DNA of 64,000 bases. Source: Escherichia coli. Its GTDB lineage: Bacteria > Pseudomonadota > Gammaproteobacteria > Enterobacterales > Enterobacteriaceae. Below are positions 27,892-61,816 of this stretch, piece by piece. The notes beneath the pieces were generated by a model that searched no databases, was not told the DNA's origin, and worked only from the letters and a program-made list of their open reading frames with translations. Numbering within the stretch: the first letter of the stretch is position 1; each line of letters begins with the position of its first letter. The stretch lies in NCBI RefSeq assembly GCF_041886205.1, contig NZ_CP169029.1. One strand, given 5' to 3'. The position numbers and the translations under genes are program-made.

Positions 27892-28113
27892 TGAGTGGGG
27901 GCTGTATTTAGGGCGGGGAATTCAGAAAGGGATGTTTAGTGTGCTGAGCGAGAGTTAAATAATAAAAAACTGGAAGATTTAATAATCCCCCCGCAGGGCA
28001 AGAGCATGAATTAAATTTGTGTTAAATTTTTCATTTTATCAGTTCGAAACCCAAGCTCTGAGCAGGATGCAAGCACTTCTTCTATATAACATGTGTTTAA
28101 CGCCAGGGCAAGA

Positions 28114-28951
28114 TTACGAAAGCCCGCTCCCCGCAAGGACTGACGCCAGATAGTTTCTGTCCATGGCTGCTTTTCGCATCTTACGTCTTAACCCTGCCTT
28201 GAATACCTTATCATTCGTCAAAATATTAATAGCAATGTGCCGTATCCCTGAAAATAATTCTGCTGCATTTCCTCTTCTTATTTTGCAGTCGTCTTCATTC
28301 ATTACCACGTCCAGACGCCAGTGCAGCTTATTCTCCACGTGCCAGTGATTTCGGATTGCTGTGGCGAACTTTTCAGCGGTTAAATCAGCAGAACTGATAT
28401 AATATCTGACCGTCATTTCTGGCTCTTTCTTTTGTTCTGCTATTATGGACCGAAAGGAGACTGCCACGCATAATTTCTTCAGCCCTTTCCATTCAAACGT
28501 GAAATCAATAAGTTCATCAGGGACATCGCAAACAATATGAAGACGGATTTCTTCTCTGCCGTGACTCTTTTCACTAATTGCGTAACTGTCATGCTCTGGA
28601 TTATTTAATTCTTTCAGCGGAAATCTCTCCTCAAAGGCTTTATTTAGCCGCCCCTGGTTTCCTTTTACCGCGAATAAATAATCACCTCCCTGTTTTTGTA
28701 TCTTCTCTGCAATATCTTTCTGGCAACCCATCGCATCAGTTGTGATGATTTTTCCTTTAATATCCAGCATGTTTAAGAAGTTCTGGGATAGCTGTAATCT
28801 CATTAGATTTCTCATCCGTCCTGATCTGTCCGATGACCAGACTGTGCATTGTTGAGAACGCACTAATGACATGAATCGCTCCCCTGCGGCGACTCTTGTC
28901 ATAAATGTGCCGGAAGTGTTTTCCCATCAATTGCGATGACGTCTTTATCAT
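28114..28951 (-). pseudogene. ISAs1-family (Rhs H-repeat-associated) transposase, 5'-truncated and frameshifted
   Basis: C-terminal ~260 aa of an H-rpt transposase (...[40 protein letters not shown]...[19 protein letters not shown]...); the preceding segment is in another frame; no N-terminus. Confidence 0.75.
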
Positions 28952-29538
28952 CTGAAGAATGGCAGCTCACGCATCCAGTTAATAAAGCACTCAGTGAAAT
29001 TTTCCAGGACTGATACAGGATACAACTCTGGCAATAGTATCGTGAACAGGAATACCATTTTCAAAATCACCATATTGCTTCAAGAAATCGAGACGTGTTT
29101 CCCCGAAATCCTCCATATCTTCCCAACTTTCTGCACCAGAAATAACGGCACAACACAGTCAACAGTAGGATGTCCGGACGATTTATGCTCCACTTTCCAG
29201 GCTCGTACTCTAATGGGGACAGACAGCAAATATGTTCCATCAATTGTTCAAGTTCCAGTTGGTTCTACCTTAATTATGTAAGGAGTATGTTGATCATGTA
29301 TAAGCTATAAAACAGCTTCAGGTAATGAGGAAGTATCTCAATTCTGAATACCTAGAATGCGAAGTATTTAGTACAAAAAAGTGAGCGTCTGACGTGATGC
29401 CTGTGTCCTAGGCGCAGCCCTTCTTTCTTTTCCTCTTCACCCTTGATGTCTTGGCAATCCCTTGGTAAATTCAGTGCCATCTTCTTTATTCCAAGTGTTA
29501 TTTAGGCTGCGTTTCCTCTTCTTATCCGGCTGGCATCT

Positions 29539-30678
29539 TCATTGATTTTCTACATATCTAACACCCAATGAAGACTGTGCTGATTCAACCAGTGCGCTCT
29601 GAGAGCACGTGCAAGTTCTCCACGCATCCATATCCTTTGATGAAATATAATATCTGATGCCCACACCTTCTGCTGATTTATCTTCTTTCTTCTGCCTGAA
29701 TGACAATGCTACACAAGAGCTTTTCAATCTCTTCCATTCTAATTCAAAGTCACAAAAGTTCAGGTCATGATACTGACAATATGCAAACGTGCACCACTTC
29801 TTCCATGCCTTGTCTCCTGGGAATTACGGGCTGCCTTTGTAATCAGAAAACACGTTCACAGGCAATTTTTCCTCGAACGCACGAGGCGATTTCCCTGATT
29901 CGCCTTATTTACTGCCAGAGATGATCTGCTATTTAATCATGTCTATAGCTATCGAAGCGACAGCTTCTAGACAGCCCATAGCAGTCAGTGGTCATCGAAT
30001 TGTTGAACTTAAAATACGAGTTAGGTTAGTAGCAACTCTGGAAGTGGCTGTAATCATCATTACTTTCGGCCTCCGAATGCCACCTGCCCCAGTACAACAC
30101 CTATTTCCGTTCGAGATATGCACTTTCACCATATGCGATTGCTCCTTTTCGTTTTCCCTCAGGAAGTAGTCTTTAACTGCTCTTCCATCTATTGCTGTAA
30201 TTTCACCATCAGTGATTTCATGGCACTCCTGTATCCATTCAATAAACATCTTTTCAAAGGCCAAGACTGTCAATGTTGCTCGCGACGCGTGCAATGCTGT
30301 CATTCGACCGTAATGCCATTGATCAAAATCACCATATTTCTTTAGCCATTCAAGTCTTTCATGTCCAAGATCTGCATTTTCTTTACCCGCATTGGCACCT
30401 GCCAACAACTGCACATACGGTGAGAACAAATAGCAGATACTTTATGTTGATAGACCGTACCTTGTCGTCGTATATCAGGGACTTACTGAAAACCGATCAA
30501 AGCAAACTTTGAGTAACACTCGCCTGCGTCCATTTTTTCTAGCTGTATTCATCAACTCCTGCAACGATATCACCTGTATGGCGTTGAAGCCCAAGATGAA
30601 GGCGTCGTGATCCACGATCGCGAATTTCAAGTATTTCGCCCCGTCCCTTGCGCTCGTGACTTTCTGTATGTATTTCAT
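29539..30678 (-). pseudogene. Second, more divergent H-repeat/ISAs1-like transposase remnant split over three frames
   Basis: Fragments ...LEWLKKYGDFDQWHY...ITAIDGRAVK... and ...VALSFRQKKEDKSAEGVGIRYYISSKDM... resemble the N-terminal and middle parts of H-rpt transposases. Confidence 0.5.
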
Positions 30679-31422
30679 GTTTTACCCAGTTCTGGTGTTG
30701 TCCAATAATGACCATCCACCGATCCAGTCAAAAACTTCATTTTTCAAATTGATACCATAACAATCAACATCGTAATGGTCTCCATAATTAATTATTTAAC
30801 AACTAGCCAACACGTTTTGATCATCAAAATAGCACCCGTTAGCGAAAGTAGCGCAGAACAATCCATAATCTCCAGTTTGCTAATGTTTCGCAATCGCACG
30901 CTATAAAGAATATCACCGAAAAAACTAACGATTTATATCAACCACTCCAGCAGAGCGACCTGAAACTCTTAACCATTATACTTATAAAATGACCATTCCC
31001 TCGACTAGTTCTCTGGTCATTAATTATTGCATAAATAATATTCACCCAGAAACATCTATCTCAACTGCTCGTTGCTGGCCCATGTCCGGTAAATATGATG
31101 TCTGGGAATTTGAATAGGGTATCAAGCCCAAAGGTAAAACAAATAAACCAGGTGGTAATTGAGAAGATGGCCAAGTTTGCCTCTGGTAATTCAAGTGTCT
31201 GAACTCCCTTGCTTTGCTTTCATTGGATTATCTGCATCCCTGGCCACCCCAACCCGTGGAGTCGCCCAGTGGCGTATTTTTCAATACGTGCATCGCTACA
31301 TTTGGCAGAAAAATCGCCACAAGCAATACCTGACAGTGTTATTTTCAGATTGATGATTCTGTCTGTAGCTGGGCGTAACCCTGTCTATCCCTGCAGCTGA
31401 TGATTTTGACCTATCATGTTAG

Positions 31423-34400
31423 CTATTGTCGCATCCAACTGGCCTGGTCAATCGACGCATCAAGTGGCAATGTCTCAATTGCATCGGCGGCCCCATTATG
31501 AGCTCCGCCAACAATAGCATCCATGGCATAACCGGGCTGGTAGGCGCTGTTAGTAATGCGGTCTGCAGCAATCAATCCAGGTACACCAGATACGGCATAA
31601 ATTAGTCCACCTGATGTCCATATTTCGATCGCATCTAGCCCCATTGGGTCTATCAAACTGCACCGGATTTCAGCGGATACTGATACAAATTCCATCCCCC
31701 CTTCAGCCCAATCGGATCCTGAGTGATATACCTCCCCTGCAGCGGGTCATAATAGCGGTGGCGGTTGTAATACAGGCCGGACTCCTCATCATACTGCTGC
31801 CCCGGCAGGCGGATAAGCTGCTGCAGGCTGATGCGGGTTCTCTTCATTCAGCAGGTTGCCCCATTCATCGTATTCTGCGCACCACGCTGTTGCCCCTTCC
31901 GTGCTGATAAGCGCCAGCGGCAGGCCGCGATGGTCGCAGTGGTACAGGTGGATTTTTCGCGCCGGCGTGTACACCGGGTCCATCTGGTTTTGCATCTGCT
32001 CCACCGTCAGGCCGCACGATGCCAGCCAGCGGCGGCTTTCCTCACTCACCCGGTCAGCCAGGATTTCACTTTCCAGCCGGTCGAGCATCTGCACCAGCAC
32101 CGGCGGGAACACCACACTGCCACCGTCTTCGCCGCCGGACTGCTGAAGGGTATCCGCCAGGCTGCGGCGCTGCGTTTTCGCCTGCTCACCGGTGGCGGTT
32201 TCAACCCTGATGAGTGGCGTGAAGCTCCCCGGCTGATAAATCGTCTGGATGCGGGTCCTGTCGTTCTGTATCGTGGTCAGCCGGTCGCCGTCCCAGCCGT
32301 ACCAGGTCACTTGCGGTTTCCGTGACAGCGACATCCAGCCCGTCAGGTCCCGTTCACGCCGCCACACCCGTTTTGCCACCCTGCGGCCCAGCGGGTCGTA
32401 AAGATAGCGACTTTCGACCAGCGGCTCTGCATATTGTGTCCGCGTGTAGTGCACCAGCCGGTGCTGACTGTCGTAATGGTACCGGTGGGTGCGCTCATCA
32501 TCCGTGCGGATAACCCCTTCCGGGATGAGGTCGGTTTTCTCCGTCAGCCTGCCGTGACGGTCATACCGGTAAAGATAGTGCGCGTCACGGGCGATACGGT
32601 TATCCGGCCACATGCTGAGGGTGCTGTCCGGGTGCAGCTCCGGGTCGGGCAGGCGGTTACCTGCCGGGTCTGTGGCATACGGGATGCGGATATCCAGATT
32701 CGCTGCGGTGGTGTGAACGCTGGTCAGCCTGCCGGTGGTGCTGTAGCTGTAACTCCGGGTCTGGCGCGGGCTGCTGATGCGGATGAGTTCGCCGTTGTCG
32801 TTCCAGGTGTAATCGCGGTCATACAGCAGGCTGTTCAGGTGCTGGCTCTGTAACTGCCCGGCAGGGGTGTAAGCGGTGGTGAGTTCATTAACGGCCGAAG
32901 CTGCGCAGCGTTTCCCGGTGCAGGCGGTCGCGGGTGTACTCCACCAGCGGTGTGTCGCCGAGTTTCATGCCTGCCAGGTAACCGCTGCCGTAGGTCAGCC
33001 ATTCCACGGCGGGCAGGCTGTCCGGTATACAGCGGTTCGCCAGCCCCTGCGCGTTGTACGCATGTCTGGTCTCATGCTGCCAGAGCAGTGCTTCCGTCTG
33101 CGGGTGATGCACCGTCTGACGTTCACCGGTCAGGCGGCCTTTATCATCATACCCGTAGTGCACCGTCACCCGGTGCCCTTCGCTGATATGGCTGATGTCT
33201 GTCAGCCAGCCGCGTGTCGTCATACTGCCACCGCTCTGCCGGTTTCACCCTTCACGGTGCGGTGCGTGAGGCGGTCTGCTTCGTCATAGTGCCAGTGGGT
33301 GACCAGCCCCTCATCCTCACTGCTGGATGAGTTTGCCGGTCAGGTCGTGGTGATAACGCTGTGTGCGGCCGTCAAAGCCGGTTTCCTGTATCGAGCCGGT
33401 CAAGCACATCGTAACGGAAGGTGGTGTGGCTGCCGTTTTCACTGGTCAGGCGGATGACCCGTCCGGCAGCATCGTATTCCATACTGCGCGTCAAGCCCGC
33501 CCTGCGTGGTACAGACGGCCTTTCCCGCGCGCATCGTACTGTGTCCCGTTTCTGCTGCCGTCCGGGGCAATAACGGCGGTCAGGTCACCGGCGGCGTTGT
33601 ATTCATACCGCGTTTCATGGCCCTGCGTGTCTTTCACCGAGCAGTTAACTGTCCACGGCTGTCGTATGCGCGGTACTGGCTCATGCCCTTCCTCGCGGTG
33701 CACCGCCGTCATCTGACCGAAACGGTCATGGTCATAGCGGGTCGTGGTAACCGGAACAGTCAGTGAAGGTCAGCAACTGACCGTAACGGCTCCACGTCAT
33801 GGTTTTCCGGTACTGCCCGTCGCATCCGTCCGTTGTCGCAGGGAAGCTCACTGTGCGCGGATTATCATAACGGTAGCGGGTGATATCGCCGTCAGGGGCG
33901 AGTCTCCTGAATCAGACGTCCGTATTCATCATATTCCCGGCGCATTTCCAGCCCGTCCTGGCCCGGTAGCTGACGTTAACTGGTTGTGGTCGTTATAGTG
34001 AAACGCCGATGCCCTGCCATCCGGCGTGGTGATGCGCGTGATGAGCGCCGCGACACCACATCCGGGCTGTACTCTGTCTGTCCGGCCTGCGGCATCCGTC
34101 TGTGCCTTAAGCCTGCCCACCGCATCAAACTCGACTCTGCGTGACGCTGCCGTCCGCGTGTTCCTTTTTCACCACCCGCTTCAGCCCGGCTTCGCCCTGC
34201 GTGTGCAGCACTTCACGGCGGTTCAGGCTGTCGGTGATGGTGATGCGGTCCTTCTCATACTGATAGCGTGTAGCTCCAGAGCCTGCCGGGTTGAGCTGCT
34301 TCGTCACCCGCCCGGTCACTCGTCGTACCGGTAGCGGATTTCCGGCCGGCCCGCGTAACGGTGCGCCACCATCCGGCCCCGGTGTTGCATCATCGTAAGT

Positions 34401-35441
34401 GAAAGCTGCGCACCTGCGTTCCGCTGCGGTCATACACCGCCGCGCAGTTCGCCGCGCTGGCCGTCCAGCGTGTAGCGCGCCAGCGGCGCGGCAGGCTGAA
34501 TTCTCCGGGTATGCCGGGTCGTGCGTCAGCCACACCGCCGACAAGACGGATGCCGTTGTCCGGGCCGTATTCGGTGTACCCGGGCAGTGTGTCGAGGAAA
34601 AGCGGACGGTTCCGAGACCGGCGGGAAGATAAAGAGTGCGCGCTGCTCGGGCTTGTCCTGCCCGCTGCGCCTGCGTGGTCAGCACCAGCCGGAAGTGACG
34701 CCCGGCACCGTCCGTCACGCCGGTGATTTCGCCGCCGAATGTCACCCGCCGGCCTCGCGGTGGAACGTCAGCGTCCGCCCGAAGCGGTCCGCCAGCCCGG
34801 TCAGCACCCGGTACGGCGGCAGCGCGCGCAGGCAGCACCTCGTCCGCTTCCGGCACCCGCTCACGACCAGCCGAGCAGCCACCACGGCCCCTGCAGCGCT
34901 GTTCGTCGCCAGATAACGATGCGGACTTAAGCGGATATCTTCCGGCAGCGCCTGCCAGAGTGCGCCTAGCCGTGTGACCGTTCATCCAGCTCCGCCACGC
35001 CGCCGCGCACCAGCCACAGTGACTCGCTGCGGCTGTAGCCGTCCTCGCCGGGAAACAGCGTGCTCAAAGTGACAGGCTCCTGCCGCCGTTGTCAGCTGAG
35101 TATCAGTGCGTCATCGCGCAGCTGTAAGCGGATATCCGCAGGCGCTTTCAGCCGGGGCCGAGGCTCCCCACCGGCGCGGGCGTTCTGGTCCGGTAGCTGC
35201 TGTAGGTGCGGGAGAGGATGAACGGCAGCGGGCGCGGGCAGGGCGATGTCGGTCTCGCCGGGCAGGCACCTTCGCACCGAGCAGCGGATTGACCGGATGG
35301 CCGGACGTCACCCCGCCGGACACGCCGAACAGGCCACGCCGGTGGGCGCGCCGATGCGCACCCGGCTGCCGAACCCTCGGACAATGCCGCGGCCGCCTTG
35401 CGGGTCATGTCGCCCTGACGCGCCGCCGGTTTTCCGCTCAT
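31423..35441 (-). pseudogene. rhs: rhs (Rhs YD-repeat toxin) element, extensively frameshifted; includes the C-terminal tip after the DPxGL motif
   Basis: Canonical N-terminus MSGKPAARQGDMT at 35441; YD-repeat core fragments in at least 8 different ORFs; core end ...[31 protein letters not shown] at ~31653; the tip ORF (31423..31695) contains IDPMGL. Confidence 0.78.
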
Positions 35442-35569
35442 GAATCAATTCCTCTTTCTGCTTATTAATAATGGCTTGTCTGTTACTGCACCAGTACCGT
35501 TTTAACAGGTGCACCCGACCCTAGTACTGCTCGCATATCCGGCGTATCCGGGGGGTGAATCTTTCGGCA

Positions 35570-37693
35570 TCAGGCGTCATCCGGTGCGGGATCGTCGAGG
35601 CTGCCACAGTTCCAGTTAATCAACTGGCGCAGTCACCGTTCACCTGCTCGACTCACCCTGCCAGAGTGAATGTGCGTGCCGTTGAGAAAGATTGCTGCCG
35701 TCCTTCGTCAGCACCAGCCTTGCCTCACCACAGCAGAGCTCCAGATGCCACAGGCGAGATAAACTCGCGGTCTGCCCGTGTGTCAGTCCTTCATTCGTCT
35801 TCTACCACCGGTGAAAGGCGGCGTGATTCCCCACATTGACGTCTGTAGCCCAGCCCGACCCTGAACCAGTGATCCGAAGCAGCCCTGCCTGTGAGGACTG
35901 CAACAGACGCCACCGAGGTGTGGTCGTAATGCCGCCTACCGTCGTCTGGTACGCCCACCGTCAGCGCACGAACGAGTCGCCACCGTTTCCACTCTGAACA
36001 GAACCCACGTTGATGATCTGGTTACCGCCCACCGTCTCCACACTGGTTCATCCCCCACTCGTCTGTATCTGATTAACGCCAATGTTCTGGATCTGGTTAT
36101 TGGTACCGGCGATCGCCTGGTTGTTGCCAATGGTCTCGGCATGGTTGTTTATCACATCCGTGGTGCGGTTATTCAGCACCTCAGGTGTTCATCTGTCTTC
36201 TGCGCGTGGATGTAGACCTGTTCTTTCCCTGTCGCATCGTCAAACTTCAGTTCATTAAACCCGCTGCCCGTATACGTTTTCGAGCGGATGGTCATCTGCG
36301 TCTTCGTTCCGGCAGGCTGCCGGGTGTGCGGTTTTCCTGGTGGTAGGTACGCCCCATAATGATCGGCTGGTCCGGATCGCCGTTGAGGAAGTCCACAATC
36401 ACCTCCTGACCCACACGCGGTATCGCCAGGTGGCCAAAACCGGTGCCTGCCCACGCCTGTGCCACACGGATCCAGCACGAACTGTCTTGGTCTGCCGGGT
36501 TATAACGGTCCCAGTTGAACTTCACCCGCACGCGACCATGTTCGTCGCAGAAGATTTCCTCGCCTGCCGGTCCTGTCACGACAGCGCTCTGCGGGCCGTC
36601 AACCAGCGGTTTCAGCAACGGCTGTGGTCGCCATGTTCTGTCTGCCGGGATCACCGCAAAATGGTTATCCAGCGCCGTCCCCGCTCCCTGCCGTCCTGGC
36701 ACCGCCTGTGGCTGTTCGCCGTGCAGTTCACTTGCCACCACCTGCCATTCCCGGTTCAGGTTCGCCTGCGGATGCCCCGTCAGCACAATTCGCCGTCCCG
36801 GCCATATCTCCGGCGAGCGGCTTGTTCCCCGCGCGGTTTCTGCGTTGTTGCGCCAGCCGTCCATCTGCCAGCGGGCAAAGTTCTGCCCGTGGGCACTCTC
36901 GAAACGTCCGGGGTAGTCATACACTTCATACTGCGTGCGCTGGTAGTCCTGGTGCTGGCCTTCCTGTTCAAAACGTCCGGCCCAGCCGGGTCGCTTAAAG
37001 GTGTAGTCTTTGTGTTCACCACGGAAGAAGGGCGGATTTGTGCGCTGTAGCGGAACTGGCTGATGCAGAGGGTGCTCACCTCGGTACGGGTGTTCGGATT
37101 CCAGGGATTTCAAAAGATTCGGGCAGATAACGCGACTGTGTCGCACAGCACCAGGCTCTGGTCGGTACTTTTGTAAGCATGCTCCTCATAAAAGAAGATG
37201 CCTTCCTCCGCCGCCATCCGGCACAGGAAATCGTAATCAGTCTCACCGTACTGGACACAAAACTCACGGGAAGGATGCGGCTCGCTGAACAGCGGACTCC
37301 ATTCGGTCACCCCGTTTTCCTGCAACATCGTGCCGAGGATGCTTTCGATGTCCTCGTTCTGGAAGATACGGAAGTTCTGGCGCAGACCGGCACGCCACAG
37401 CGGCGGGTGCACCTTCATGCTGTACAGCATCTGGTTTTTGTCGTTCTCCCCCAGTTCAAACCAGGTCACCACACCTTCACCCGGCGCTGTACGTCATCGC
37501 CCTGCCATACCGTCAGGTAGGCCATTTTGTCCAGCACCTGCGCAAATTCAAGGGAGAGAAACTGCTGGCTGACCAGAGAGAGATCGAGGGAAAAAAGCGA
37601 AGAGAGTGACTGGTTCAGATGAAAGGAAACCACCGCAAACGCATCCGGTGGCAGGCCGTCCACTTCCAGTGTGAAACGTAATCCGGTTGACAT
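35570..37693 (-). pseudogene. vgrG: vgrG (T6SS spike protein), split across at least 5 frames; 3' boundary approximate
   Basis: N-terminus MSTGLRFTLEVDGLPPDAFAVVSFHLNQSLSSLFSLDLSLVS at 37693; gp27/gp5-like fragments continue in ORFs 37110..37472, 36292..37146, 36173..36478, 35936..36142. Confidence 0.75.
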
Positions 37694-37890: not shown

Positions 37891-37898
37891 GGCTTAAC

Positions 37899-39647: not shown

Positions 39648-39682
39648 CCACCACGATTCCATTAAACAGGGTTATCCAGGAC

Positions 39683-41828: not shown

Positions 41829-41894
41829 AACGCATGAGGTGCTTGAATTTGATATGGCACCGAATGCAGCCAGCATTACCGGGTGGACTGACAA

Positions 41895-43701: not shown

Positions 43702-43729
43702 CCGTTGTGAACACAGAAAGCCAGGAGAC

Positions 43730-52265: not shown

Positions 52266-53679
52266 ATGGCAATGGACTTACGCGATCCGAATGTCTGGAT
52301 ATCGCACCTGCTGGAAAACCTGCCGGAAGAGAAACTGGCATCGGCGCTGAAAGATGACAACCCGAACTGGGAGTATATCGACGGCGAAATCGTCAAGCTG
52401 GGATCGCTGGCCCACAGTCAACTGGATATCCCGGAACTCCAGCGCCGGGGGCTGGTCATTCTGGCTTCGGAGAGTAAGGATTTTCGTCTGCTGGCGCATC
52501 TGCTGAGAACCCTGCAACACGCCGGTGATCCTCACTCCCGCATTGCGCCTGCTGGCGCTGTATGTGGAGCATTACTGGGCGGTGGCTGCGCCGCAGAATA
52601 TGGCGCATAAAAAACGCTTTGCCAGCCAGGTCATTAAACGCTTTGAAACAGGTATTGAAGTTTTTTCACAGAACGCCGCCACAGCGCAGCGCGATGCGCT
52701 GTCAGGGGAACTGGCAAAACTGGCGCAATGCTGGCAGTCACATAACGCCCCGGAACTGGCACAGGCTACTGATGATCTTTTTGCCCCGTACCAGCGTGCG
52801 TTTAATCGTGCGGCACCGGTTCCTGTCCCCACTCCGGCGGCCTCCGGTAGTTCACCACAGACCACCGCCACGTCTGAAAGCGGCGTGACGCAACCCAGTG
52901 CTCCGGCTCCCCAAATCGTCATCGACAGTCACGACGACAAAGCCTGGCGCGACACGCTGTTAAAAGTGGCGGCCATTTTATGTGAACGCCAGCCGGATTC
53001 ACCGCAGGGCTACCGTCTGCGCCGCCATGCGCTTTGGCAGAACATCACCAGTACGCCCCAGGCGGAAAGCGATGGCCGTACTCCACTGGCTGCGGTCTCC
53101 GCCGATATGGTGGCAGATTACCATGCTCAGCTCGGTAGTGCCGATATGGCGCTGTGGCAGCAGGTGGAGAAAAGCGTACTGCTGGCTCCTTACTGGCTGG
53201 ATGGTCACTGCCTTTCTGCACAGACGGCGCTGCGTCTGGGTTACAAACAGGTGGCAGACGCCATCCGCGATGAGGTCATCCGCTTCCTTGAGCGTCTGCC
53301 CCAGCTTACCGGGCTGCTGTTTAATGACCACACACCGTTTATCAGTGAGCAGACGAAACAATGGCTGGCAGCTTCGCCCGACGCCAAAGTTGCACCGGTT
53401 GCGCAAATCGGTGAGGAATCGAAGGCAGCCAGAGCCTGTTTTGCTGAGCAGGGTCTGGAGGCGGCGCTGCGATATCTGGACATGCTACCCGAAGGCGATC
53501 CCCGCGATCAGTTTCACCGCCAGTACCTTGCCGCACAGTTGACGGAAGAGGCGGGGCTGGTACAGCTTGCGCAGCAGCAGTACCGGATGTTGTTCAGGAT
53601 GGGATTGCAGATGATGGTGGCAGACTGGGAGCCGTCCCTGCTTGAGCAGCTAGAACAAAAATTCACGGCAGAACAATAA
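52266..53679 (+). pseudogene. tssA: tssA (ImpA-N-domain protein), one frameshift near 52540
   Basis: MAMDLRDPNVWISHLLENLPEEKLASALKDDNPNWEYIDGEIVKLGSLAHSQLDIPELQRRG... continues in a second frame (ORF 52525..53679). Confidence 0.65.
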
Positions 53680-53697: not shown

Positions 53698-56600
53698 GTG
53701 TTCAGATTACCAACACCCCGACTACTCAGCGGACTCAAATCAGCCCTGCGACCGGCGATGCCCCGGTTTAAAGTCTCTGCTTTCTGGCTGCTGATACTGG
53801 CGTGGATTTTTCTGCTGGTGTGGATCTGGTGGAAAGGCCCGACGTGGACGCTGTATGAAGAACAGTGGCTCTAAACCACTGGCGAACCGCTGGCTGGCAA
53901 CGGCGGCGTGGGGGATTATTGCCCTGATGTGGCTTACCGTCCGGGTGATGAAGCGCCTGCAACAGCTTGAAAAACAGCAAAAACAACAGCGCGAGGAAGC
54001 CGTTCGATCCGCTCAGTGTGGAACTGAACGCCCAGCAGCGTTACCTCGACCGCTGGCTGCTGCGCCTGCAACGCCATCTCGACAACCGCCGTTTCCTGTG
54101 GCAATTGCCGTGGTATATGGTCATCGGCCCGGCGGGCAGTGGCAAAACGACACTGCTGCGCGAGGGGTTTCCGTCAGACATTATTTATGCCCCGGAGGGC
54201 TCGCGCGGCGCAGAACAACGCCTGTACCTTACGCCCCATGTCGGTAAACAGGCGGTGATCTTTGATATCGACGGCACACTCTGCGCTCCCGCTGATGCGG
54301 ATATCCTGCATCGCCGTCTGTGGGAACATACCCTCGGCTGGCTGAAGGAAAAGCGCGCGCGCCAGCCCGCTGAACGGGATTATTCTGACACTCGATTTAC
54401 CCGATCTGCTGACCGCAGACAAGCGCCGCCGTGAGTATCTGCTACAGACGCTGCGCAGCCGCTTGCAGGATATACGCCAGCATCTTCACTGCCAGCTACC
54501 GGTTTACGTGGTACTGACCCGGCTTGATTTATTGCAGGGTTTTGCCGCCCTGTTCCAGTCCCTGAACAGACAGGATCGTGATGCGATTCTGGGTGTCACG
54601 TTCACCCGCCGTGCCCATGAAAATGATGACTGGCGAACAGAGTTGAATGCTTTCTGGCAGACATGGGTGGATCGAATGAATCTGGCGTTGCCGGATCTGA
54701 TGGTCGCTCAGACTCACACCCGCGCGTCTTTATTCAGTTTTTCCCGCCAGATGCAGGGAAGCCGTGAACCCCTGGTGTCACTGCTTGAAGGTCTGCTTGA
54801 CGGCGAAAATATGAACGTGATGCTGCGTGGTGTCTATCTCACCTCGTCACTGCAACGCGGCCAGATGGATGACATCTTTACCCAGTCCGCCGCCCGCCAG
54901 TACCGGCTGGGCAATAACCCACTGGCGTCCTGGCCCCTGGTGGACACCGCGCCTTATTTCACCCGCAGCCTGTTCCCGCAGGCATTACTCGCAGAGCCTA
55001 ATCTGGCAACGGAGAGCCGTGACTGGCTGATGCGTTCCCGTCGCCGCCTGACGGTTTTCTCTGCCACAGGCGGCGTGGCGGCACTGCTGCTCATCACCGG
55101 CTGGCATCACTATCACAACGGTAACTATCAGTCCGGCATCACCGTGCTTAAGCAGGCCAAAGCCTTTATGGACGTGCCGCCTCCGCAGGGGAAAGACGAC
55201 TACGGCAACCTGCAACTGCCGCTGCTGAACCCGGTACGCGATGCCACACTGGCCTATGGCGACTGGGGCGACCGCAGCCGTCTGGCCGATATGGGACTGT
55301 ACCAGGGACGACGTATCGGGCCTTATGTGGAACAGACCTATCTGCAACTACTAGAGCAGCGTTACCTGCCCTCGCTGTTTAACGGGCTGGTCAAAGCGAT
55401 GAACGCCGCGCCGCCGGAGAGTGAGGAAAAACTCGCCGTGCTGCGCGTGATGCGAATGCTGGAGGACAAAAGCGGACGCAATAATGAGGTGGTGAAGCAG
55501 TATATGGCAAAACGCTGGAGCGAAAAAGTTCCACGGCCAGCGTGATATCCAGGCACAACTGATGTCCCATCTTGACTACGCGCTGGCTCATACTGACTGG
55601 CATGCAGAGCGTCAGGCGGGCGACGGTGACGCCATCAGCCGCTGGATGCCATATGACAAGCCCGTGGTATCAGCACAGAAAGAACTGAGCAAACTGCCTG
55701 TCTACCAGCGGGTTTACCAGAGCCTGAAAACGCGGGCGCTGGGCGTTCTTACCTGCTGACCTCAATCTGCGTGACCAGGTAGGGCCAACCTTTGACCAGG
55801 TCTTTACATCTGCCGATGACAACAAACTGGTTGTTCCACAGTTTCTTACCCGTTACGGCCTGCAAAGCTATTTTGTAAAACAGCGCGATGAACTGGTTGA
55901 ACTGACGGCAATGGATTCCTGGGTACTCAACCTCACCCGCAGTGTGAAATACAGTGACGCCGACCGCGCGGAAATCCAGCGCCAGTTGACCGAGCAGTAT
56001 ATCAGCGACTACACCGCTACCTGGCGAGCCGGGATGTGACAATCTGAATATCCGCAATTTTGAGTCCATTGGACAACTGACCGGGGCGCTGGAGCAGGTT
56101 ATCAGCGGCGACCAGCCTTTGCAGCGGGCGCTGACTGTGTTGCGTGACAACACACAGCCAGGCGTCTTTTCTGAAAAACTTTCTGCCAAAGAACGGGATG
56201 AGGCTCTGGCAGAACCGGACTACCAGTTGCTCACCCGCCTCGGGCATGAATTTGCCCCGGAAAACAGTACTCTGGCAGTACAGAAAGACAAAGAAAGCAC
56301 GATGCAGGCCGTGTATCAGCAACTCACCGAGTTGCACCGCTATCTGCTGGCAATTCAGAACGCGCCTGTACCAGGGAAATCGGCGCTGAAAGCCGTGCAG
56401 TTGCGGCTTGATCAGAACAGCAGCGATCCGATATTCGCCACCCGCCAGATGGCAAAGACACTGCCTGCTCCGCTCAACCGCTGGGTTGGCAGACTGGCTG
56501 ACCAGGCCTGGCATGTGGTGATGGTGGAGGCCGTTCACTATATGGAAGTGGACTGGCGCGACAGCGTGGTGAAACCGTTTAACGAGCAACTGGCAAATAA

Positions 56601-57228
56601 CTATCCGTTTAATCCGCGTTCTGCACAGGATGCCTCACTGGATGCCTTCGAACGCTTCTTTAAACCGGATGGCATACTGGATACCTTCTACCAGCAGAAC
56701 CTGAAGCTGTTTATCGACAATGACCTGAGTCTGGAGGATGGCGATAACAGCGTCATTATTCGCGAAGATATTATTGCGCAACTGAAAACCGCGCAGAAAA
56801 TCCGTGACATCTTCTTCAGTAAACAGAACGGTCTGGGAACATCCTTTGCCGTGGAAACGGTATCGCTCTCCGGCAACAAACGCCGCAGTGTACTGAACCT
56901 TGACGGCCAGTTAGTCGATTACAGCCAGGGGCGCAACTATACCGCCCATCTGGTCTGGCCTAACAATATGCGCGAAGGCAACGAAAGCAAACTGACGCTC
57001 ATCGGCACCAGCGGCAACGCGCCGCGCAGTATCAGCTTCAGCGGGCCGTGGGCGCAGTTCCGCCTTTTCGGGGCCGGACAACTGACCGGAGTTCAGGATG
57101 GCAACGTTACCGTGCGCTTTAGCGTGGACGCTGGCGCGATGACCTACCGTGTGCATACCGACACTGAGGATAACCCATTCAGCGGTGGGTTATTCAGCCA
57201 GTTTGGTCTGTCAGACACACTGTACTGA
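53698..57228 (+). pseudogene. tssM: tssM (IcmF-like membrane-complex component), about five frameshifts
   Basis: GTG start with N-terminal transmembrane helices (...FWLLILAWIFLLVWIWW...); Walker A ...MVIGPAGSGKTTLL...; pieces in ORFs 53967..54434, 54463..55545, 55562..55759, 56119..57228. Confidence 0.75.
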
Positions 57229-57239
57229 GGAGGCAGGGA

Positions 57240-58593
57240 TGGATAGTAACGGACTGACACAAACTATCGTTACCGGCAGTGACCCGCGCGGGGCTGCCGG
57301 AATTCAGTGCCATCCGCGAGGAAATAAACAAAGCCAGCCACCCGTCACAGCCTGAGCTGAACTGGAAACTGGTGGAGTCGCTGGCACTGGCGATTTTTAA
57401 AGCCAACGGTGTGGATTTACACACCGCCACCTACTAGACGCTTGCCCGGACACGGACACAGGGACTGGCGGGATTCTGCGAAGGTGCGGAACTGCTGGCG
57501 GCAATGGTAAGCCACGACTGGGATAAGTTCTGGCCGCAGGGCGGCCCGGCGCGTACTGAAACGCCGGACTGGTTTAACTCCCGAACCGGCAATATTCTGC
57601 GTCAGCAAATCTCCTTTGCGGAATCCGACCTACCACTGATCTACCGCACAGAGCGGGCATTGCAGCTTATCTGCGATAAGCTCCAGCAGGTGGAACTGAA
57701 GCGCGTTCCGCGCGTGGAGAATCTGCTCTATATTTATGCAGAACACGCGTAAACGGCTTGAACCCCAGACTGAAGAGTAACACTGAGAACGCCGCACAGA
57801 CCACGGTCAGAACGCTGATTTATGCCCCGGAAACACAGGCATCTTCCACACCAGAAGCGGTAGTGCCTCCCCTGCCCGGCCTGCCTGAGATGAAAGTGGA
57901 AGTGCGCAGTCTGACAGAGAATCCCCCACAGGCCAGTGTGATAAAGCAAGGCAGTACGGTAAGAGGGTTTATCGCAGGGATCGCCTGTTCAGTGGCTGTC
58001 GCCTCAGCATTGTGGTGGTGGCAGGTCTATCCGGTGCAGCAGCAACTGTTACAGGTTAACGACACCGCTCAGGGCGCAGCAACGGTGTGGATGGCCTCAC
58101 CTGAACTCGAAAACTATGAGCGCAGGCTGCAACAACTTCTTGATACCTCCCGGTACAGCCGCTGGAAACCGGGATGCAGATGATGCGTGTTGCCGACAGT
58201 CGCTGGCCGGAAAGCCTGCAACAGCAACAGGCCTCGACACAATGGAATGAGGCACTCAAAACCCGCGCACAGAGTAGCCCGCAGTTGCGTGGCTGGTTGC
58301 AGACCCGCCAGGACTTACATGCTTTTGCAGATCTAGTGATGCAGCGCGAGAAAGAGGGACTAACCCTTTCCTATATCAAAAATGTCATCTGGCAGGCGGA
58401 GCGGGGACTGGGGCAGGAAACACCCGTTGAGTCTCTGTTGACGCAGTACCAGGATGCCCGTGCGCAGAAGCAGAATACAGATGCGCTGGAAAAACAAATT
58501 AATGAGCGACTCGAAGGCGTGTTAAGCCGCTGGCTGCTGCTGAAGAATAACGTCATGCCAGAGGCGGCAACCGGTACCACGGCCGAAAAATAA
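57240..58593 (+). pseudogene. Unassigned T6SS accessory gene(s) (TagF/VasL-position), fragmented; family not determined
   Basis: ORF pieces 57240..57355, 57504..57752, 57758..58183, 58174..58593 in different frames; lies between tssM and the second hcp. Confidence 0.3.
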
Positions 58594-58616: not shown

Positions 58617-59099
58617 ATGGCAAATATAAGTTATTTATCTTTGAGTGGAGAGACACAAGGGCTGATTTCAGCAGGTTGCTCAACGCTTGATTCTGTCGGA
58701 AACAAAGCGCAGCCAGAACATAAAGATCGAGATCATGGTTTATGCGTTAATGCATTCCATCTCAAGAAGTCAAAATGTCAATCATCATGAATTAATTATC
58801 ACCAAACCGGTTGATAAATCCTCACCATTGCTGGCAAAAGCACTTAGTGACAATGAAAAAATGGCAATATGTGAATTTATACTCTACCGAACCAGTAAAG
58901 CGGGTATTTACCAGCCTTATTATAAAATAAATCTGTCAAAAGCCCGAATATCAAGTATTGATTTTGTCACACCGCATGCTGTCCTGGAAAAGAACTGGAA
59001 CCACAGGAGAGAATTGCCTTTATTTATGAAGATATTTCCTGGGAGCATACGTTAGCCGGTACGAATGCAATGAGTAAATGGCAGGATCGTGTACAGTAA
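58617..59099 (+). pseudogene. hcp: Second Hcp-family gene, two frameshifts
   Basis: MANISYLSLSGETQGLISAGCSTLDSVGN (Hcp N-terminus) then frame loss; middle part ...DKSSPLLAKALSDNEKMAICEFILYRTSKAGIYQPYYKI...; C-terminus ...ISWEHTLAGTNAMSKWQDRVQ* in a third frame. Confidence 0.65.
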
Positions 59100-59142: not shown

Positions 59143-60039
59143 ATGGCTGGTTTAAGGAATAACAACAACACACAGAATGCACAGTGGGCTGATTATGTGG
59201 GTGACATTCTTCGGGGGGCTCAGCCGATAAACCAGCTAGTACCTCAGCACCCTTATCTTAACGACGTCCCACTCATTGATGAGTTAAGGCATCAGAACAC
59301 TCATCATGTTATTCTCTTGACACTTGATGTTGCAAAAAAAATACTCAGCCCAATAACATCATTTGATTACATTCATTTTATCACTACACATCCTTCAGGT
59401 ATAAAAGATACACTCGCCTGGTTAGTTAACGCGGGTAAATTAATGACTGAGTTTGATGACAATGGGAAAATTATATTTAACCTTAATGCCTTAAAGTATA
59501 CAAAAGCAAGTTACTTTGAAATACTTGGAGAGAAATATATAAAAATCACAACATCCAGCCCCTGGCTTTTAGAAAAGCTCGGTAAATATATTTTCTCTTC
59601 ACGAGCGCCTCAAGTTCTGGAACTCGCTATTGGCTGGCGAGGAGCTTTATCTGAATCAATAAAAGGAGTTAAGTTCTGTATCTGGTTTTCAGTAGCCTGG
59701 AGAACCATAGAATTTATTATGAGTTCAGAGCGAGATCTGGTTAATTTTCTTGGCGATTTTTCAATGGATGTGGCCAAAGCAGTTATAGCCGGTGGTGTTG
59801 CAACCGCTATTGGAAGCCTGGCTTCTTTTGCCTGTGTTAGCTTTGGCTTTCCAGTAATTCTTGTCGGAGGAGCAATTTTACTGACAGGGATAGTGTGTAC
59901 AGTTGTTTTAAATGAAATCGATGCTCAATGCCATTTATCAGAAAAATTAAAATATGCAATTAGAGATGGACTAAAACGGCAACAGGAACTTGATAAATGG
60001 AAAAGGGAAAACATGACTCCATTTATGTATGTTCTTTAA
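59143..60039 (+). CDS. Hypothetical protein (~298 aa) with C-terminal Gly/Ala-rich hydrophobic segment; candidate Hcp-linked membrane-targeting effector
   Basis: Intact AT-rich ORF directly after the second hcp; C-terminal AKAVIAGGVATAIGSLASFACVSFGFPVILVGGAILLTGIVCTVVL resembles glycine-zipper membrane-inserting segments. Start chosen at MAGLRNN; the alternative start is 59128. Confidence 0.5.
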   Translation: MAGLRNNNNTQNAQWADYVGDILRGAQPINQLVPQHPYLNDVPLIDELRHQNTHHVILLTLDVAKKILSPITSFDYIHFITTHPSGIKDTLAWLVNAGKLMTEFDDNGKIIFNLNALKYTKASYFEILGEKYIKITTSSPWLLEKLGKYIFSSRAPQVLELAIGWRGALSESIKGVKFCIWFSVAWRTIEFIMSSERDLVNFLGDFSMDVAKAVIAGGVATAIGSLASFACVSFGFPVILVGGAILLTGIVCTVVLNEIDAQCHLSEKLKYAIRDGLKRQQELDKWKRENMTPFMYVL

Positions 60040-60067
60040 CACTCCACCCGTGATATGAGGATTAACC

Positions 60068-60433
60068 ATGCGTTTACATGTTAAATTAAAAGAGTTTCTT
60101 TCGATGTTTTTTATGGCCATATTATTTTTCCCTGCATTCAATGCTTCTTTGTTTTTTACCGGAGTTAAACCTCTATATTCAATAATAAAATGCTCCACGG
60201 AAATATTTTATGATTGGAGAATGTTGATTCTGTGCTTTGGTTTCATGTCGTTTTCCTTTTTAAATATTCATGTAATTTTACTTACGATAATAAAATCATT
60301 CTTAATCAAAAAAACGAAGGTAGTCAATTTCGCCACAGACATAAACAATACAGCTAACTCTTATATTTTTACTAATAGCTATCGTAATAGCACCTTTAAT
60401 AGCTCCTTTTGTCACAGGATATGTCAATGCTAA
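60068..60433 (+). CDS. Hypothetical small polytopic membrane protein (121 aa); candidate cognate immunity protein
   Basis: Intact AT-rich ORF 29 bp after the preceding gene; strongly hydrophobic (…FFMAILFFPAF…, …MLILCFGFMSFSFL…). Confidence 0.4.
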   Translation: MRLHVKLKEFLSMFFMAILFFPAFNASLFFTGVKPLYSIIKCSTEIFYDWRMLILCFGFMSFSFLNIHVILLTIIKSFLIKKTKVVNFATDINNTANSYIFTNSYRNSTFNSSFCHRICQC

Positions 60434-60703
60434 TTATCACCCCTGCGGTAATAATGCGGGGATTTTCCCAGCGAGCAATCTGATATTAAAAATGGCATGA
60501 AATGTAGTAACTGAATATATTTCTCGCAAGGAAGATTCAGCAGTTAAATAACTAAATATTCTAAAACAAACAGTTTTTAACTCCGGTATTCCATGTCCTT
60601 TCTTGCACTGTCTTTGTCAAGAAAGATTTCTTATGCAAAGAATTTTGTATTATTGCCGCCCAGAGATTCCTGGCGGCAGATAGAATCTATTATTGATAGC
60701 GAG

Positions 60704-61486
60704 TTAACCAAATCTTTTCACCATCGCTTTATAGGTCTTTTGCTTAAGTTGCATGATTTGCTGCTCTGTCATATCAGTCGTACTGGCTTCATTCTTGTCG
60801 GGCAATGGTGGAAGCACTTTATATTCATACTTCACCGGCGACCAGGTACGTAGCCCACTCACCTGTTGCCACATCCACCAGCGTGAAACGTACCAGGTAG
60901 CGCAGGGAGATAGCGTCGGTGAGTTTTTCATTTTTATAGTCGGACCATACTGTTGATTTCAGCGCAGAGTCATATTTTCCTGTCTGCAACGTATCCTGGA
61001 AAACAATAATCGCTTTCTGATGCCCTTTTGCAGCCCACAAAACGCAGTGCCTGCATCCAGTTCATATTCTCAGCACTGGCAACATCCTCGTTCTCATTTT
61101 TATCTTTGTTTTTGTTACAAGTCAGAGGCTTTTGCCTGTCCGGGATACTCAGAAAAGAACGTGGAAACAGTATAATATTTTCGCATCTCCTCCTGCATAA
61201 TGGTTTCCGGTGCGCGGTTGCCGGATTGAACAAGTATTACAGGAGAATTAAGGGGAACGCGGAACTCATCTCCATCAAGCGCAGCTTGAATATCCTCTTC
61301 GGATACGGCCAGAGTGGTTTCATTACCGAATAAATCTTTGTCTGTCAGTTGCTGGGGAGTGTTTTTATTAATATTACTTTGTGTGACTTGAGCTTTTTTC
61401 TTCTTTTCATCAATAGAAGATTCAGAGGCACATCCTGCAAGCAGCGAGAATAACACACATATGCAACAAAGCTTTTTTGAATTCAT
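60704..61486 (-). pseudogene. yafT: YafT-like lipoprotein gene, about three frameshifts
   Basis: Lipoprotein signal [19 protein letters not shown] at 61486; coding-like continuation in three further frames (ORFs 60970..61233, 60825..61040, 60704..60931); adjacent to tRNA-Asp. Confidence 0.6.
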
Positions 61487-61816
61487 AATTGGACACTCCC
61501 TCGCCTGTCATAATCATGGTAATGTTTAGCTAACGATTTTTAATTATATACTCCACTTGAATCAGAACAAACAAAAATAACAGTATATATAAATTCATTA
61601 AATCAATAGAAAAATGAAAATCATAACATTCAAATATATTTAAATTGAATGATTCGATAGTATGATTAAATATTAATGATATGGTCTACCATATGTGATT
61701 AACACATTTACAGCATAACAAAACCATAGACCGAAGAAATAGCGGGATTTAAATGCAAAAAAAACCGCAAAATTAAAAATCTTGCGGTTCTCTGAACTCA
61801 TTTTCATGAGTGAATC

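What the first reader, a model, noticed from the sequence alone, without database searches (positions are those of the whole stretch)
27892..61816. ~34 kb aspV-linked island carrying a complete but massively pseudogenised T6SS
Between yafV and tRNA-Asp the window contains, in order: H-repeat transposase remnants, rhs, vgrG and hcp on the minus strand; then on the plus strand tssB, tssC, tssE, tssF, tssG, tagH, tssJ, tssK, tssL, clpV, a VasI-like gene, tssA, tssM, accessory fragments and a second hcp. Almost every gene is interrupted, with reading frames changing every few hundred bp and in-frame stops (for example TAG-TAA inside tssB). The neighbouring core genes are uninterrupted over long stretches (fadE 814 aa, pepD 485 aa, betA 556 aa), so this looks like real decay rather than general sequence error. 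As I recall, K-12 has only yafT-ykfM-yafU-yafF between aspV and yafV, which would be the fully deleted end state of the same locus.
Basis: partly seen in the sequence, partly recalled or inferred. Interest (0 to 1): 0.7.

Follow-up and report, generated by a model that had tools for sequence, protein, structure and literature searches.

The report
Known aspV T6SS island, frameshifts likely artefactual
The region really is the well-known type VI secretion island next to tRNA-Asp, and as written it is riddled with frameshifts. Those frameshifts have the statistics of random inserted bases, not natural gene decay, so this is most likely a local sequence-quality problem rather than biology.

Summary
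Window 27892-61816 is collinear with the intact aspV-linked T6SS-1 island of E. coli SJ7, Sakai and others. Only tagH, tssJ and vasI are unbroken.

The "real decay" reading is not supported:
- On the window's own branch there are 132 indels to 112 substitutions. Natural branches of the same island give 15:500 (Sakai) and 5:80 (K-12).
- Insertions outnumber deletions about 7-8:1. The largest indel is 7 bp, and there is no IS insertion or large deletion.
- 58.4% of 1-bp insertions match neither neighbouring base, exactly as simulated random insertions do (58.0 +/- 5.3%). Only 2 of 113 extend a run of 4 or more.
- Insertion density is piecewise, from 0 to 27 per kb, with clean margins of about 610 bp at both ends of the island.
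- The flanks are identical, with no indels, to strains wlxctx60 and 6EVA. Their lineage carries a different T6SS at this site and loses it through IS elements and deletions.
- None of 5,426 complete genomes shares the indels, and no searched public collection holds the two frameshifted ORFs or the one indel-bearing 30-mer that I tested.

The best explanation is region-specific consensus error, for example a thinly covered or unpolished patch, possibly from a mixed-strain assembly, laid over an essentially intact, already known island. Interest is low. An unexplained A/T->G/C, strand-skewed substitution excess is recorded.

The parts
27124..27891 (+). yafV, the left core flank. It is identical to wlxctx60 up to 27889. 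The switch to the SJ7-like haplotype falls between 27177 and 27890.
28114..30523 (-). Two ISAs1/H-repeat transposase pseudogenes (28114-29259 and 29364-30523). They are already pseudogenes in the intact reference islands; here they carry many additional small insertions.
30706..31198 (-). ydcD-like small gene downstream of rhs, broken into two frames.
31183..35441 (-). rhs. The core at 31615-35441 is RhsA-D/RhsC type: 98% identical to natural cores over 31615-33000, and 93.9% overall with 55 insertions and 2 deletions.
35520..37693 (-). vgrG (tssI). The N-terminal part is 88-97% identical at amino-acid level to natural VgrG. The C-terminal part is heavily frame-shifted.
37899..38425 (-). hcp1 (tssD), 7 insertions.
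39135..39647 (+). tssB, 8 frameshifting events; frame-1 translation shows eight stops, including an adjacent pair.
39959..41461 (+). tssC, 19 frameshifting events.
41468..41891 (+). tssE, 9 frameshifting events.
41895..43772 (+). tssF, 36 frameshifting events.
43736..44816 (+). tssG, 4 frameshifting events. The dense noise stops at about 43950.
44841..46121 (+). tagH, intact and 100% identical at amino-acid level to SJ7.
46118..46642 (+). tssJ, intact.
46645..47977 (+). tssK, one +1 insertion at 47809.
47982..48742 (+). tssL (icmH/dotU), 2 frameshifting events.
48751..51521 (+). tssH/clpV, 13 frameshifting events.
51518..52261 (+). vasI, intact.
52266..53679 (+). tssA, one +1 insertion at 52535.
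53788..57228 (+). tssM, six successive +1 insertions (frames 1,2,3,1,2,3,1).
57239..58593 (+). vasL-domain gene, 4 frameshifting events.
58617..59099 (+). hcp2, one insertion and one deletion.
59143..60551 (+). 915-nt ORF (one insertion near its end) and ykfM (4 insertions).
60690..61486 (-). yafT-like lipoprotein gene, 5 frameshifting insertions. All are private to the window when compared with SJ7 and K-12.
61817..61893 (-). tRNA-Asp (aspV), the right boundary. The window is identical to wlxctx60 from 61817 onward.

Best explanation
Underneath the noise is the ordinary, gene-complete aspV-linked T6SS-1 island. It encodes the sheath (TssBC), baseplate (TssEFGK), membrane complex (TssJLM), TssA, ClpV, two Hcp proteins, VgrG, an Rhs effector, and the accessory proteins TagH, VasI and VasL. 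At substitution level it is nearly identical to the intact islands of B1 Shiga-toxin strains.

The roughly 300 small lesions are mostly not mutations that happened in a cell. They are region-specific errors in the deposited consensus: single bases, effectively random in identity and position, added to a stretch that was covered far less well than the flanks, or not polished. The step-wise changes in error density look like tiling by a few long reads or amplicons of different depth or quality.

The flanking haplotype belongs to a lineage that carries a different T6SS at this site. A mixed-sample or chimeric assembly path (majority-strain flanks, minority-strain island) is therefore a plausible way for such a thinly covered patch to arise.

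Shown: the identity of the island, the lesion statistics, their confinement to the island, and their absence elsewhere. Inferred: the technical cause. The platform cannot be named.
For: (1) Indel:substitution ratio. On the window's private branch it is 132:112 over 37.7-58.5 kb, against 15:500 on the Sakai branch and 0:16 on the SJ7 branch. At the right end it is 12:11 for the window and 5:80 for K-12.

(2) Insertion bias and size. There are 184 insertion events to 22 deletions in the well-referenced parts. Mean sizes are 1.2 and 1.4 nt and the maximum is 7 nt. Natural bacterial pseudogenes show an insertion:deletion ratio of 0.76-0.94 and deletions averaging about 19 nt (PMC6054270).

(3) Context. 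66 of 113 one-base insertions (58.4%) match neither neighbour, against 58.0 +/- 5.3% for simulated random insertions run through the same pipeline. Only 2 of 113 extend a run of 4 or more. Only 6 of 25 multi-base insertions are tandem duplications. In E. coli, indel rates rise exponentially with homopolymer length (PMC8510543).

(4) Density is piecewise. It is 0 per kb in the first 608 bp, the last 616 bp and 43950-47800, but 15-27 per kb over most of 28.5-43.95 kb and 1.3-3.5 per kb over 47.8-59.9 kb (G = 165, 5 df). It does not track natural diversity.

(5) Confinement. There are no differences from wlxctx60 in 8000-27889 or 61817-64000. Window 1-3184 is also 100% identical, and the IS1 at 3185-3952 has intact insA and insB ORFs.

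(6) No independent support. The best match among 5,426 genomes to 37500-44500 is 96.6%. Two frameshifted ORFs are not on record in the indexed public assemblies. An indel-bearing 30-mer is absent from the GTDB representative genomes and from the JGI metagenome contigs.

(7) Lineage. The closest relatives by flank (wlxctx60, 6EVA, LHM10-1) all carry the TagJ/TagK-type T6SS at this locus. They lose it naturally through IS256/IS1 insertions, large deletions and one or two point lesions.
Against: No reads, quality values or assembly metadata are available, so the technical cause is inferred and not observed.

No single platform fits. PacBio CLR is insertion-rich (about 8% against 3.2% deletions), but only about 2.5:1 and with elevated transversions. 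ONT is transition-rich but not insertion-biased (PMC7671305).

The substitution excess is strongly directional: A/T->G/C 100 against G/C->A/T 22. It is also strand-skewed, with 54 hits at T sites against 25 at A sites on the operon's coding strand. That looks more like an enzymatic spectrum than a generic base-calling error, and I cannot explain it.

A finished-quality assembly with a single 33-kb noisy patch is unusual.
Confidence: 0.7

Rival explanations
1. Genuine natural pseudogenisation: the island lost function and accumulated neutral mutations in this lineage or in a donor lineage.
For: The lesions are confined to an accessory island whose loss is tolerated; K-12 has deleted it and Sakai has a natural tssA pseudogene. 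Window-private substitutions are spread evenly over codon positions (27/22/22), as expected without selection, and show a transition excess. The few deletions are enriched in homopolymer runs.
Against: The indel:substitution ratio is about 40-fold above natural branches of the same DNA. The 7-8:1 insertion bias runs against the known deletional bias. The insertions have random context. There is no IS insertion or large deletion in 34 kb, although sister strains decay in exactly that way. Density changes in steps, including 3.85 kb with no indels. The flanks are identical to strains carrying a different island, so there was no time for in-situ decay. No relative shares any lesion. The A/T->G/C direction is opposite to the GC->AT bias generally reported for bacteria (my own knowledge, not checked here).
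Confidence: 0.08
2. Non-sequencing corruption of the record: the stretch was altered or produced in silico. Examples are a simulated, model-generated or otherwise edited sequence spliced between genuine flanks, or a faulty consensus or merging step that takes the union of a few discordant reads.
For: Insertions are statistically identical to random bases at random sites, and their composition (57% G+C) mirrors the local composition. Insertions roughly equal substitutions and far exceed deletions, which fits no sequencing platform cleanly. The transitions to perfectly clean flanks are sharp. No natural genome carries this vgrG-rhs junction at better than 83.6% identity.
Against: The rate changes in steps and the ends have clean margins of about 610 bp, which a uniform simulation would not produce. 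The directional, strand-skewed substitution spectrum is not what simple random corruption gives. There is nothing in the sequence itself that can distinguish this from low-depth consensus error.
Confidence: 0.15
3. A real, localised hypermutation process acted on a freshly acquired island. It would be insertion-prone with an A.T->G.C bias, for example an error-prone polymerase or deaminase activity directed at foreign DNA.
For: Directional A/T->G/C substitutions (100 against 22) with about a 2:1 strand skew on the operon. Lesions are confined to horizontally acquired DNA that is foreign to the host lineage. Indels cluster with substitutions: 37 of 88 mismatches lie within 5 bp of an indel.
Against: I know of no bacterial process that inserts random single bases at 1-3% of sites over tens of kb. 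There is no sequence motif at the lesions. The 3' neighbour context does not match the mismatch-repair-deficient NAC hotspot as I recall it. The clean 3.85-kb block and clean island margins are unexplained by targeting of the whole island. There is no second example anywhere.
Confidence: 0.04

Closest known systems
aspV-linked T6SS-1 island of E. coli (for example O157:H7 EDL933/Sakai ECs0212-0237, and O103/O111/O26 strains such as SJ7)
   Same: Same insertion site between yafV and tRNA-Asp, the same about 34-kb length, and the same gene order from the ISAs1 remnants through rhs-vgrG-hcp and tssB...tssM-vasL-hcp to ykfM-yafT. The underlying substitution identity to SJ7 is about 99.8% over 44-59 kb. 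A 37-kb aspV-associated T6SS island in EDL933 has been described and reported to be functional (PMC5363993).
   Different: As written, all but three genes are frame-shifted by small insertions. The rhs core is RhsC/A-D type and not the SJ7 aspV type. The host flanks belong to a lineage that otherwise carries the other T6SS type at this site.
K-12 aspV-yafV remnant (yafT, ykfM, yafU', yafF')
   Same: K-12 retains the right-end genes yafT and ykfM and a fragment of the left-end H-repeat element. It is therefore the internally deleted form of the same island.
   Different: K-12 lost the island by one large deletion and its surviving genes are intact. The window keeps the full length but has 9 frameshifts in yafT and ykfM alone.
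Naturally decaying aspV T6SS (TagJ/TagK type) in sister strains LHM10-1, 6EVA and wlxctx60
   Same: Same chromosomal site and the same flanking haplotype, 99.2-100% identical.
   Different: It is a different T6SS family. Decay proceeds by IS256/IS1 insertion, truncations and large deletions (about 35 kb, then about 19 kb, then about 6.5 kb) with only one or two point lesions. This is the ordinary natural pattern and is unlike the window.
Residual consensus errors of low-depth long-read assemblies
   Same: Small, mostly 1-bp indels with an insertion excess, position-independent context, and depth-like step changes, all confined to one patch. PacBio CLR raw reads are insertion-dominated (PMC7671305).
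   Different: The insertion:deletion ratio (at least 7:1) and the A/T->G/C transition bias are more extreme than, or different from, the published raw-read profiles. No read evidence is available.

Membership tests
Type VI secretion system gene cluster (E. coli T6SS-1, aspV type) | Homologues of all core components are present: TssA, B, C, Hcp, TssE, F, G, ClpV, VgrG, TssJ, K, L and M. | tested here: met
   Collinear alignment to the PGAP-annotated SJ7 cluster, and tblastn hits for every protein.
Type VI secretion system gene cluster (E. coli T6SS-1, aspV type) | Characteristic gene order and location between yafV and tRNA-Asp. | tested here: met
   One HSP covers the whole island plus its flanks. 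The same order is found in SJ7 and Sakai.
Type VI secretion system gene cluster (E. coli T6SS-1, aspV type) | Open reading frames are intact, so a functional apparatus could be made. | tested here: not met
   In the sequence as given only tagH, tssJ and vasI are intact. The other genes carry between 1 and 36 or more frameshifts each. If the lesions are errors, the real locus may meet this criterion.
Type VI secretion system gene cluster (E. coli T6SS-1, aspV type) | Secretion activity (Hcp export, contact-dependent killing). | not testable with these tools
   This needs the isolate.
Naturally decayed bacterial pseudogene cluster | Substitutions outnumber small indels by roughly tenfold or more on the decaying branch. 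| tested here: not met
   The window branch has 112 substitutions to 132 indels. The natural branches have 500:15 and 80:5.
Naturally decayed bacterial pseudogene cluster | Deletional bias in number and especially in size, with IS insertions and larger deletions present. | tested here: not met
   184 insertions to 22 deletions, a maximum indel of 7 nt, a net length gain, and no IS. Published insertion:deletion ratios are 0.76-0.94.
Naturally decayed bacterial pseudogene cluster | Small insertions arise by slippage or duplication, so they sit in homopolymers or form tandem repeats. | tested here: not met
   58.4% match neither neighbour, equal to the random simulation. 2 of 113 lie in runs of 4 or more. 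6 of 25 multi-base insertions are tandem duplications.
Naturally decayed bacterial pseudogene cluster | Lesions are inherited, so they are shared with related isolates. | tested here: not met
   No sharing in 5,426 complete genomes. For the two ORFs and one 30-mer tested, there is no match in the public gene index, the GTDB representatives or the JGI metagenomes.
Region-specific assembly/consensus error | Errors are confined to a patch, with depth-like steps, inside an otherwise clean assembly. | tested here: met
   No differences in about 25 kb of flanks. Piecewise densities of 0-27 per kb, and clean end margins of about 610 bp.
Region-specific assembly/consensus error | The error spectrum matches a known sequencing platform. 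| tested here: inconclusive
   The insertion excess resembles PacBio CLR, and the transition bias resembles ONT. Neither fits fully, and the A/T->G/C direction is unexplained.
Region-specific assembly/consensus error | Low or discordant read support at the lesions. | not testable with these tools
   Reads and assembly metadata are not available.

The most novel reading that the evidence does not exclude
The lesions are real and record a localised, insertion-prone mutagenic process with an A.T->G.C bias and a strand skew. This process would have acted on a newly acquired 34-kb T6SS island and nowhere else, in effect a targeted scrambling of foreign DNA by a mechanism not yet described in bacteria.
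Probability: 0.03. Interest if true: 0.9.

Novelty: already known. Interest (0 to 1): 0.12.

Why it matters
If the lesions are errors, as I think, the practical message is a caution. A gene-complete and probably functional T6SS-1/Rhs island would be mis-scored as about 25 pseudogenes, and "clean flanks" is not sufficient evidence that clustered frameshifts are biological. The tests used here are reusable screens for this kind of artefact: branch-polarised indel:substitution ratio, insertion:deletion ratio, neighbour-match fraction against a simulation, density steps, and sharing with relatives.

If the lesions were real, they would imply an unknown localised mutational process, which would be remarkable, but the evidence points the other way. 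The island itself adds nothing new to what is known about T6SS clusters at aspV.

Tried and rejected
1. SJ7 and the rhsE-locus rhs as references for 29-37 kb. They gave 15-20% mismatch and 164 'frameshifts' in rhs. I rejected these figures after a finer search showed the core is RhsA-D/RhsC type, 98% identical over 31.6-33.0 kb. Counts for 28.5-31.6 kb and 35.4-37.7 kb still rest on imperfect references (best 83.6-85%) and should be treated as upper bounds.

2. Tracing the source or an independent copy. Exact look-up of two frameshifted ORFs and exact 30-mer scans of the GTDB representatives and JGI metagenomes all returned nothing.

3. A homopolymer or phase-variable tract explanation. Rejected, because only 2 of 113 insertions lie in runs of 4 or more.

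4. A motif-linked systematic error at GATC or CCWGG sites. No such contexts recurred when I inspected the lesions by eye.

5. A mismatch-repair-deficient spectrum. The A:T->G:C dominance and the direction of the strand skew fit what I recall of that spectrum, but the 3'-C context does not, and the flanks are untouched.

6. 'Unpolished repeats'. Rejected as a general cause, because the IS1 in the window is clean and the single-copy genes tssB-tssF are among the noisiest.

7. Noise tracking natural variability, as a generative model might produce. Not supported, because the noisiest core block has the lowest natural divergence from Sakai.

8. Junction analysis. The left junction lies within sequence shared by all strains and is uninformative. 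The switch intervals are at most 713 bp and at most 123 bp, which is suggestive but not diagnostic.

9. Lee et al. 2012 (PNAS) could not be retrieved. I used PMC8510543 and PMC6054270 instead.

Full report
WHAT IS THERE

ARAGORN finds tRNA-Asp at 61817-61893 on the minus strand. The ORF map between about 28 and 61.8 kb is visibly fragmented, while the flanks hold long ORFs. Megablast against 5,426 complete E. coli genomes shows the region is the aspV-linked T6SS island found in thousands of strains.

One blastn HSP joins window 23925-64000 to E. coli SJ7 (NZ_CP044315.1) across fadE-ivy-yafV, the whole annotated island, and tRNA-Asp-dnaQ-rnhA-yafS. The SJ7 island consists of two ISAs1 pseudogenes, ydcD, rhs, vgrG, hcp, tssB, tssC, tssE, tssF, tssG, tagH, tssJ, tssK, tssL, tssH, vasI, tssA, tssM, vasL, hcp, a 915-nt ORF, ykfM and a yafT-like gene.

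aspV-associated T6SS islands are already described in the literature: a 37-kb island in EDL933 (PMC5363993) and PAI-I in LF82 (PMC2941450).

THE FRAMESHIFTS ARE IN THE SEQUENCE

Against SJ7, the flanks (24-27.9 kb and 62-64 kb) have no indels and ordinary third-codon-position, transition-rich substitutions. The island has hundreds of small indels. Only tagH, tssJ and vasI are intact.

Frameshifting events per gene, from the DNA alignment:
- tssB 8, tssC 19, tssE 9, tssF 36, tssG 4
- tssK 1, tssL 2, clpV 13, tssA 1, tssM 6, vasL 4
- hcp1 7, hcp2 2, ykfM 4, yafT-like 5

tblastn confirms the frame switching; tssM, for example, runs through frames 1,2,3,1,2,3,1. Translating tssB in frame 1 gives eight stops, including an adjacent pair.

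I corrected one early overcount. The rhs core at 31615-35441 is RhsA-D/RhsC type, 98% identical to natural cores over 31.6-33.0 kb. Against a proper reference it has 55 insertions and 2 deletions, not 164 events.

ARE THEY NATURAL MUTATIONS?

I polarised the differences using two natural alleles, so that only changes private to the window's branch are counted.

Over the T6SS core, window 37.7-58.5 kb:
- Sakai branch: 500 substitutions, 15 indels
- SJ7 branch: 16 substitutions, 0 indels
- Window branch: 112 substitutions, 132 indels (115 insertions, 17 deletions)

At the right end, 59.7-61.9 kb:
- K-12 branch: 80 substitutions, 5 indels
- Window branch: 11 substitutions, 12 insertions, no deletions

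The same DNA evolving naturally therefore gives roughly one indel per 16-33 substitutions, whereas the window gives more than one per substitution.

Size and direction. In the well-referenced parts there are 184 insertion events (223 nt) against 22 deletions (30 nt). The largest indel is 7 nt. There is no IS element or large deletion, and the island is slightly longer than the reference. Published bacterial pseudogene sets show insertion:deletion ratios of 0.76-0.94, with deletions averaging about 19 nt (PMC6054270).

Context. Of 113 one-base insertions in 37.7-61.8 kb, 66 (58.4%) match neither neighbouring base. Random bases inserted at random sites and run through the same alignment give 58.0 +/- 5.3%. 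Only 2 of 113 extend a run of 4 or more, and only 6 of 25 multi-base insertions are tandem duplications. In E. coli, small-indel rates rise exponentially with homopolymer length (PMC8510543). The inserted bases (C 44, G 43, A 33, T 32) mirror local composition, and no motif recurs at the sites.

Density. Insertions per kb, by segment:
- 0 in the first 608 bp and the last 616 bp of the island
- 27, 3.6, 20, 19 and 15 in successive segments from 28.5 to 43.95 kb
- 0 in 43950-47800
- 3.5 and 1.3 from 47.8 to 59.9 kb
- 10 in 59.9-61.2 kb

The heterogeneity is highly significant (G = 165, 5 df). These steps do not follow natural diversity: the noisiest core block is the least diverged from Sakai. 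Indels are also locally clustered, and 37 of 88 mismatches in 38-44 kb lie within 5 bp of an indel. A neutral clock acting on a dead island should be roughly uniform. Stepwise quality is what tiling by a few reads or amplicons would give.

CONTEXT IN THE GENOME AND IN THE POPULATION

The window is identical, with no indels, to E. coli wlxctx60 over 8000-27889 and 61817-64000, and nearly so to 6EVA. Every difference lies inside 27890-61816. Window 1-3184 is also 100% identical to wlxctx60, and the IS1 at 3185-3952 has intact insA and insB ORFs. The assembly is therefore otherwise clean, including a multi-copy element.

Yet wlxctx60, 6EVA and the next relative LHM10-1 all carry the other T6SS (TagJ/TagK/ImpA type) at yafV-aspV. 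That cluster shows a textbook natural decay series:
- LHM10-1: about 35 kb, with two internal stops and an IS256 remnant
- 6EVA: about 19 kb, with IS1, IS256, truncations and one frameshift
- wlxctx60: about 6.5 kb of fragments

So the T6SS-1 island is foreign to the flanking haplotype. The haplotype switch occurs within at most 713 bp on the left and at most 123 bp on the right. With flanks this similar, there has been no time for hundreds of in-situ mutations.

Nothing independent carries the lesions. The best match to 37500-44500 among 5,426 genomes is 96.6%. Two frameshift-specific ORFs are absent from the indexed public assemblies. An indel-bearing 30-mer is absent from the GTDB representatives and the JGI metagenome contigs.

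INTERPRETATION

The most economical reading is that an essentially intact, SJ7-like T6SS-1 island is overlaid by region-specific consensus error. About 16 natural differences from the shared ancestor would be expected, by analogy with the SJ7 branch. A thinly covered or unpolished patch would explain several things at once: the confinement to the island, the steps in density, the random insertions and the lack of any relative sharing them. Such a patch could have entered through a minority strain or sub-population in the sequenced material.

I cannot name the platform. PacBio CLR raw reads are insertion-rich (about 8% insertions, 3.2% deletions, 1.7% substitutions) but transversion-prone. ONT reads are transition-rich but not insertion-biased (PMC7671305).

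One feature remains unexplained. Window-private substitutions are strongly directional: A>G 74, A>C 26, A>T 12, C>T 19, C>A 3 and C>G 8. That is A/T->G/C 100 against G/C->A/T 22, while the flanks are symmetric. The substitutions are also strand-skewed on the operon, with 54 hits at T sites against 25 at A sites, and the same excess appears in rhs. This spectrum does not match the mismatch-repair-deficient context (no 3'-C enrichment). It keeps a small door open for a non-standard technical or biological process.

VERDICT

The identification as an aspV T6SS island is correct and already known. The 'real decay' interpretation is not supported, and region-specific sequence error is the best explanation (about 0.7). 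The alternatives are in-silico corruption (about 0.15), natural decay (about 0.08) and an unknown localised hypermutation process (about 0.03-0.04). Read-level data or resequencing would settle it.

Noticed in passing
window 37700-61816 and 31615-35441: Window-private substitutions are strongly directional: A/T->G/C 100 against G/C->A/T 22, with A>G/T>C dominant. On the plus-strand operon, T sites are hit 54 times against 25 for A sites. The flanks are symmetric. This is opposite to the GC->AT bias generally reported for bacteria, and no sequencing-platform profile I found explains it.
   Followed up: partly
window 27892-28500, 43950-47800 and 61200-61816: The first 608 bp and the last 616 bp of the island, and a 3.85-kb internal block (end of tssG through most of tssK), carry no insertions at all, although neighbouring segments have 10-27 per kb. 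The two clean end margins are nearly the same length.
   Followed up: partly
L009 (LHM10-1), L003 (6EVA) and L002 (wlxctx60), yafV-aspV interval: Strains sharing the window's flanking haplotype carry the other T6SS type (TagJ/TagK/ImpA) at this locus. It appears in three successive states of natural decay (about 35 kb, about 19 kb, about 6.5 kb), driven by IS256/IS1 and deletions. This is a neat natural decay series at the same site.
   Followed up: partly
window 3185-5456: An intact IS1 (3185-3952) sits next to thrW. About 12 kb that wlxctx60 has between thrW and the betA side (manganese catalase, ferritin-like genes, a LysR regulator, fdeC and others) is missing here. In its place is about 1.5 kb with an intact 326-aa ORF (4225-5205, minus strand), which matches a region annotated as an 'ABC-three component system' in strain FLI21.
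   Followed up: partly
window 31183-37693: The aspV-linked rhs has an RhsC/RhsA-D-type core, unlike the SJ7 aspV rhs. No complete genome matches the vgrG C-terminus to rhs N-terminus stretch (33000-36900) at better than 83.6%. Either this vgrG-rhs combination is rare, or this stretch is simply the noisiest.
   Followed up: partly
L008 (Sakai NC_002695.2) 15971-17382: In O157:H7 Sakai the tssA homologue (ECs_0219) is annotated as a pseudogene within an otherwise intact aspV T6SS. This is an example of the single-lesion natural state.
   Followed up: no
window 19634-19719 and 20376-20469: Two stretches of about 90 bp in the window's core region match the same intergenic stretch of wlxctx60 (L002, about 10874-10967) at 88-90%. 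They are probably REP/BIME-type repeats.
   Followed up: no
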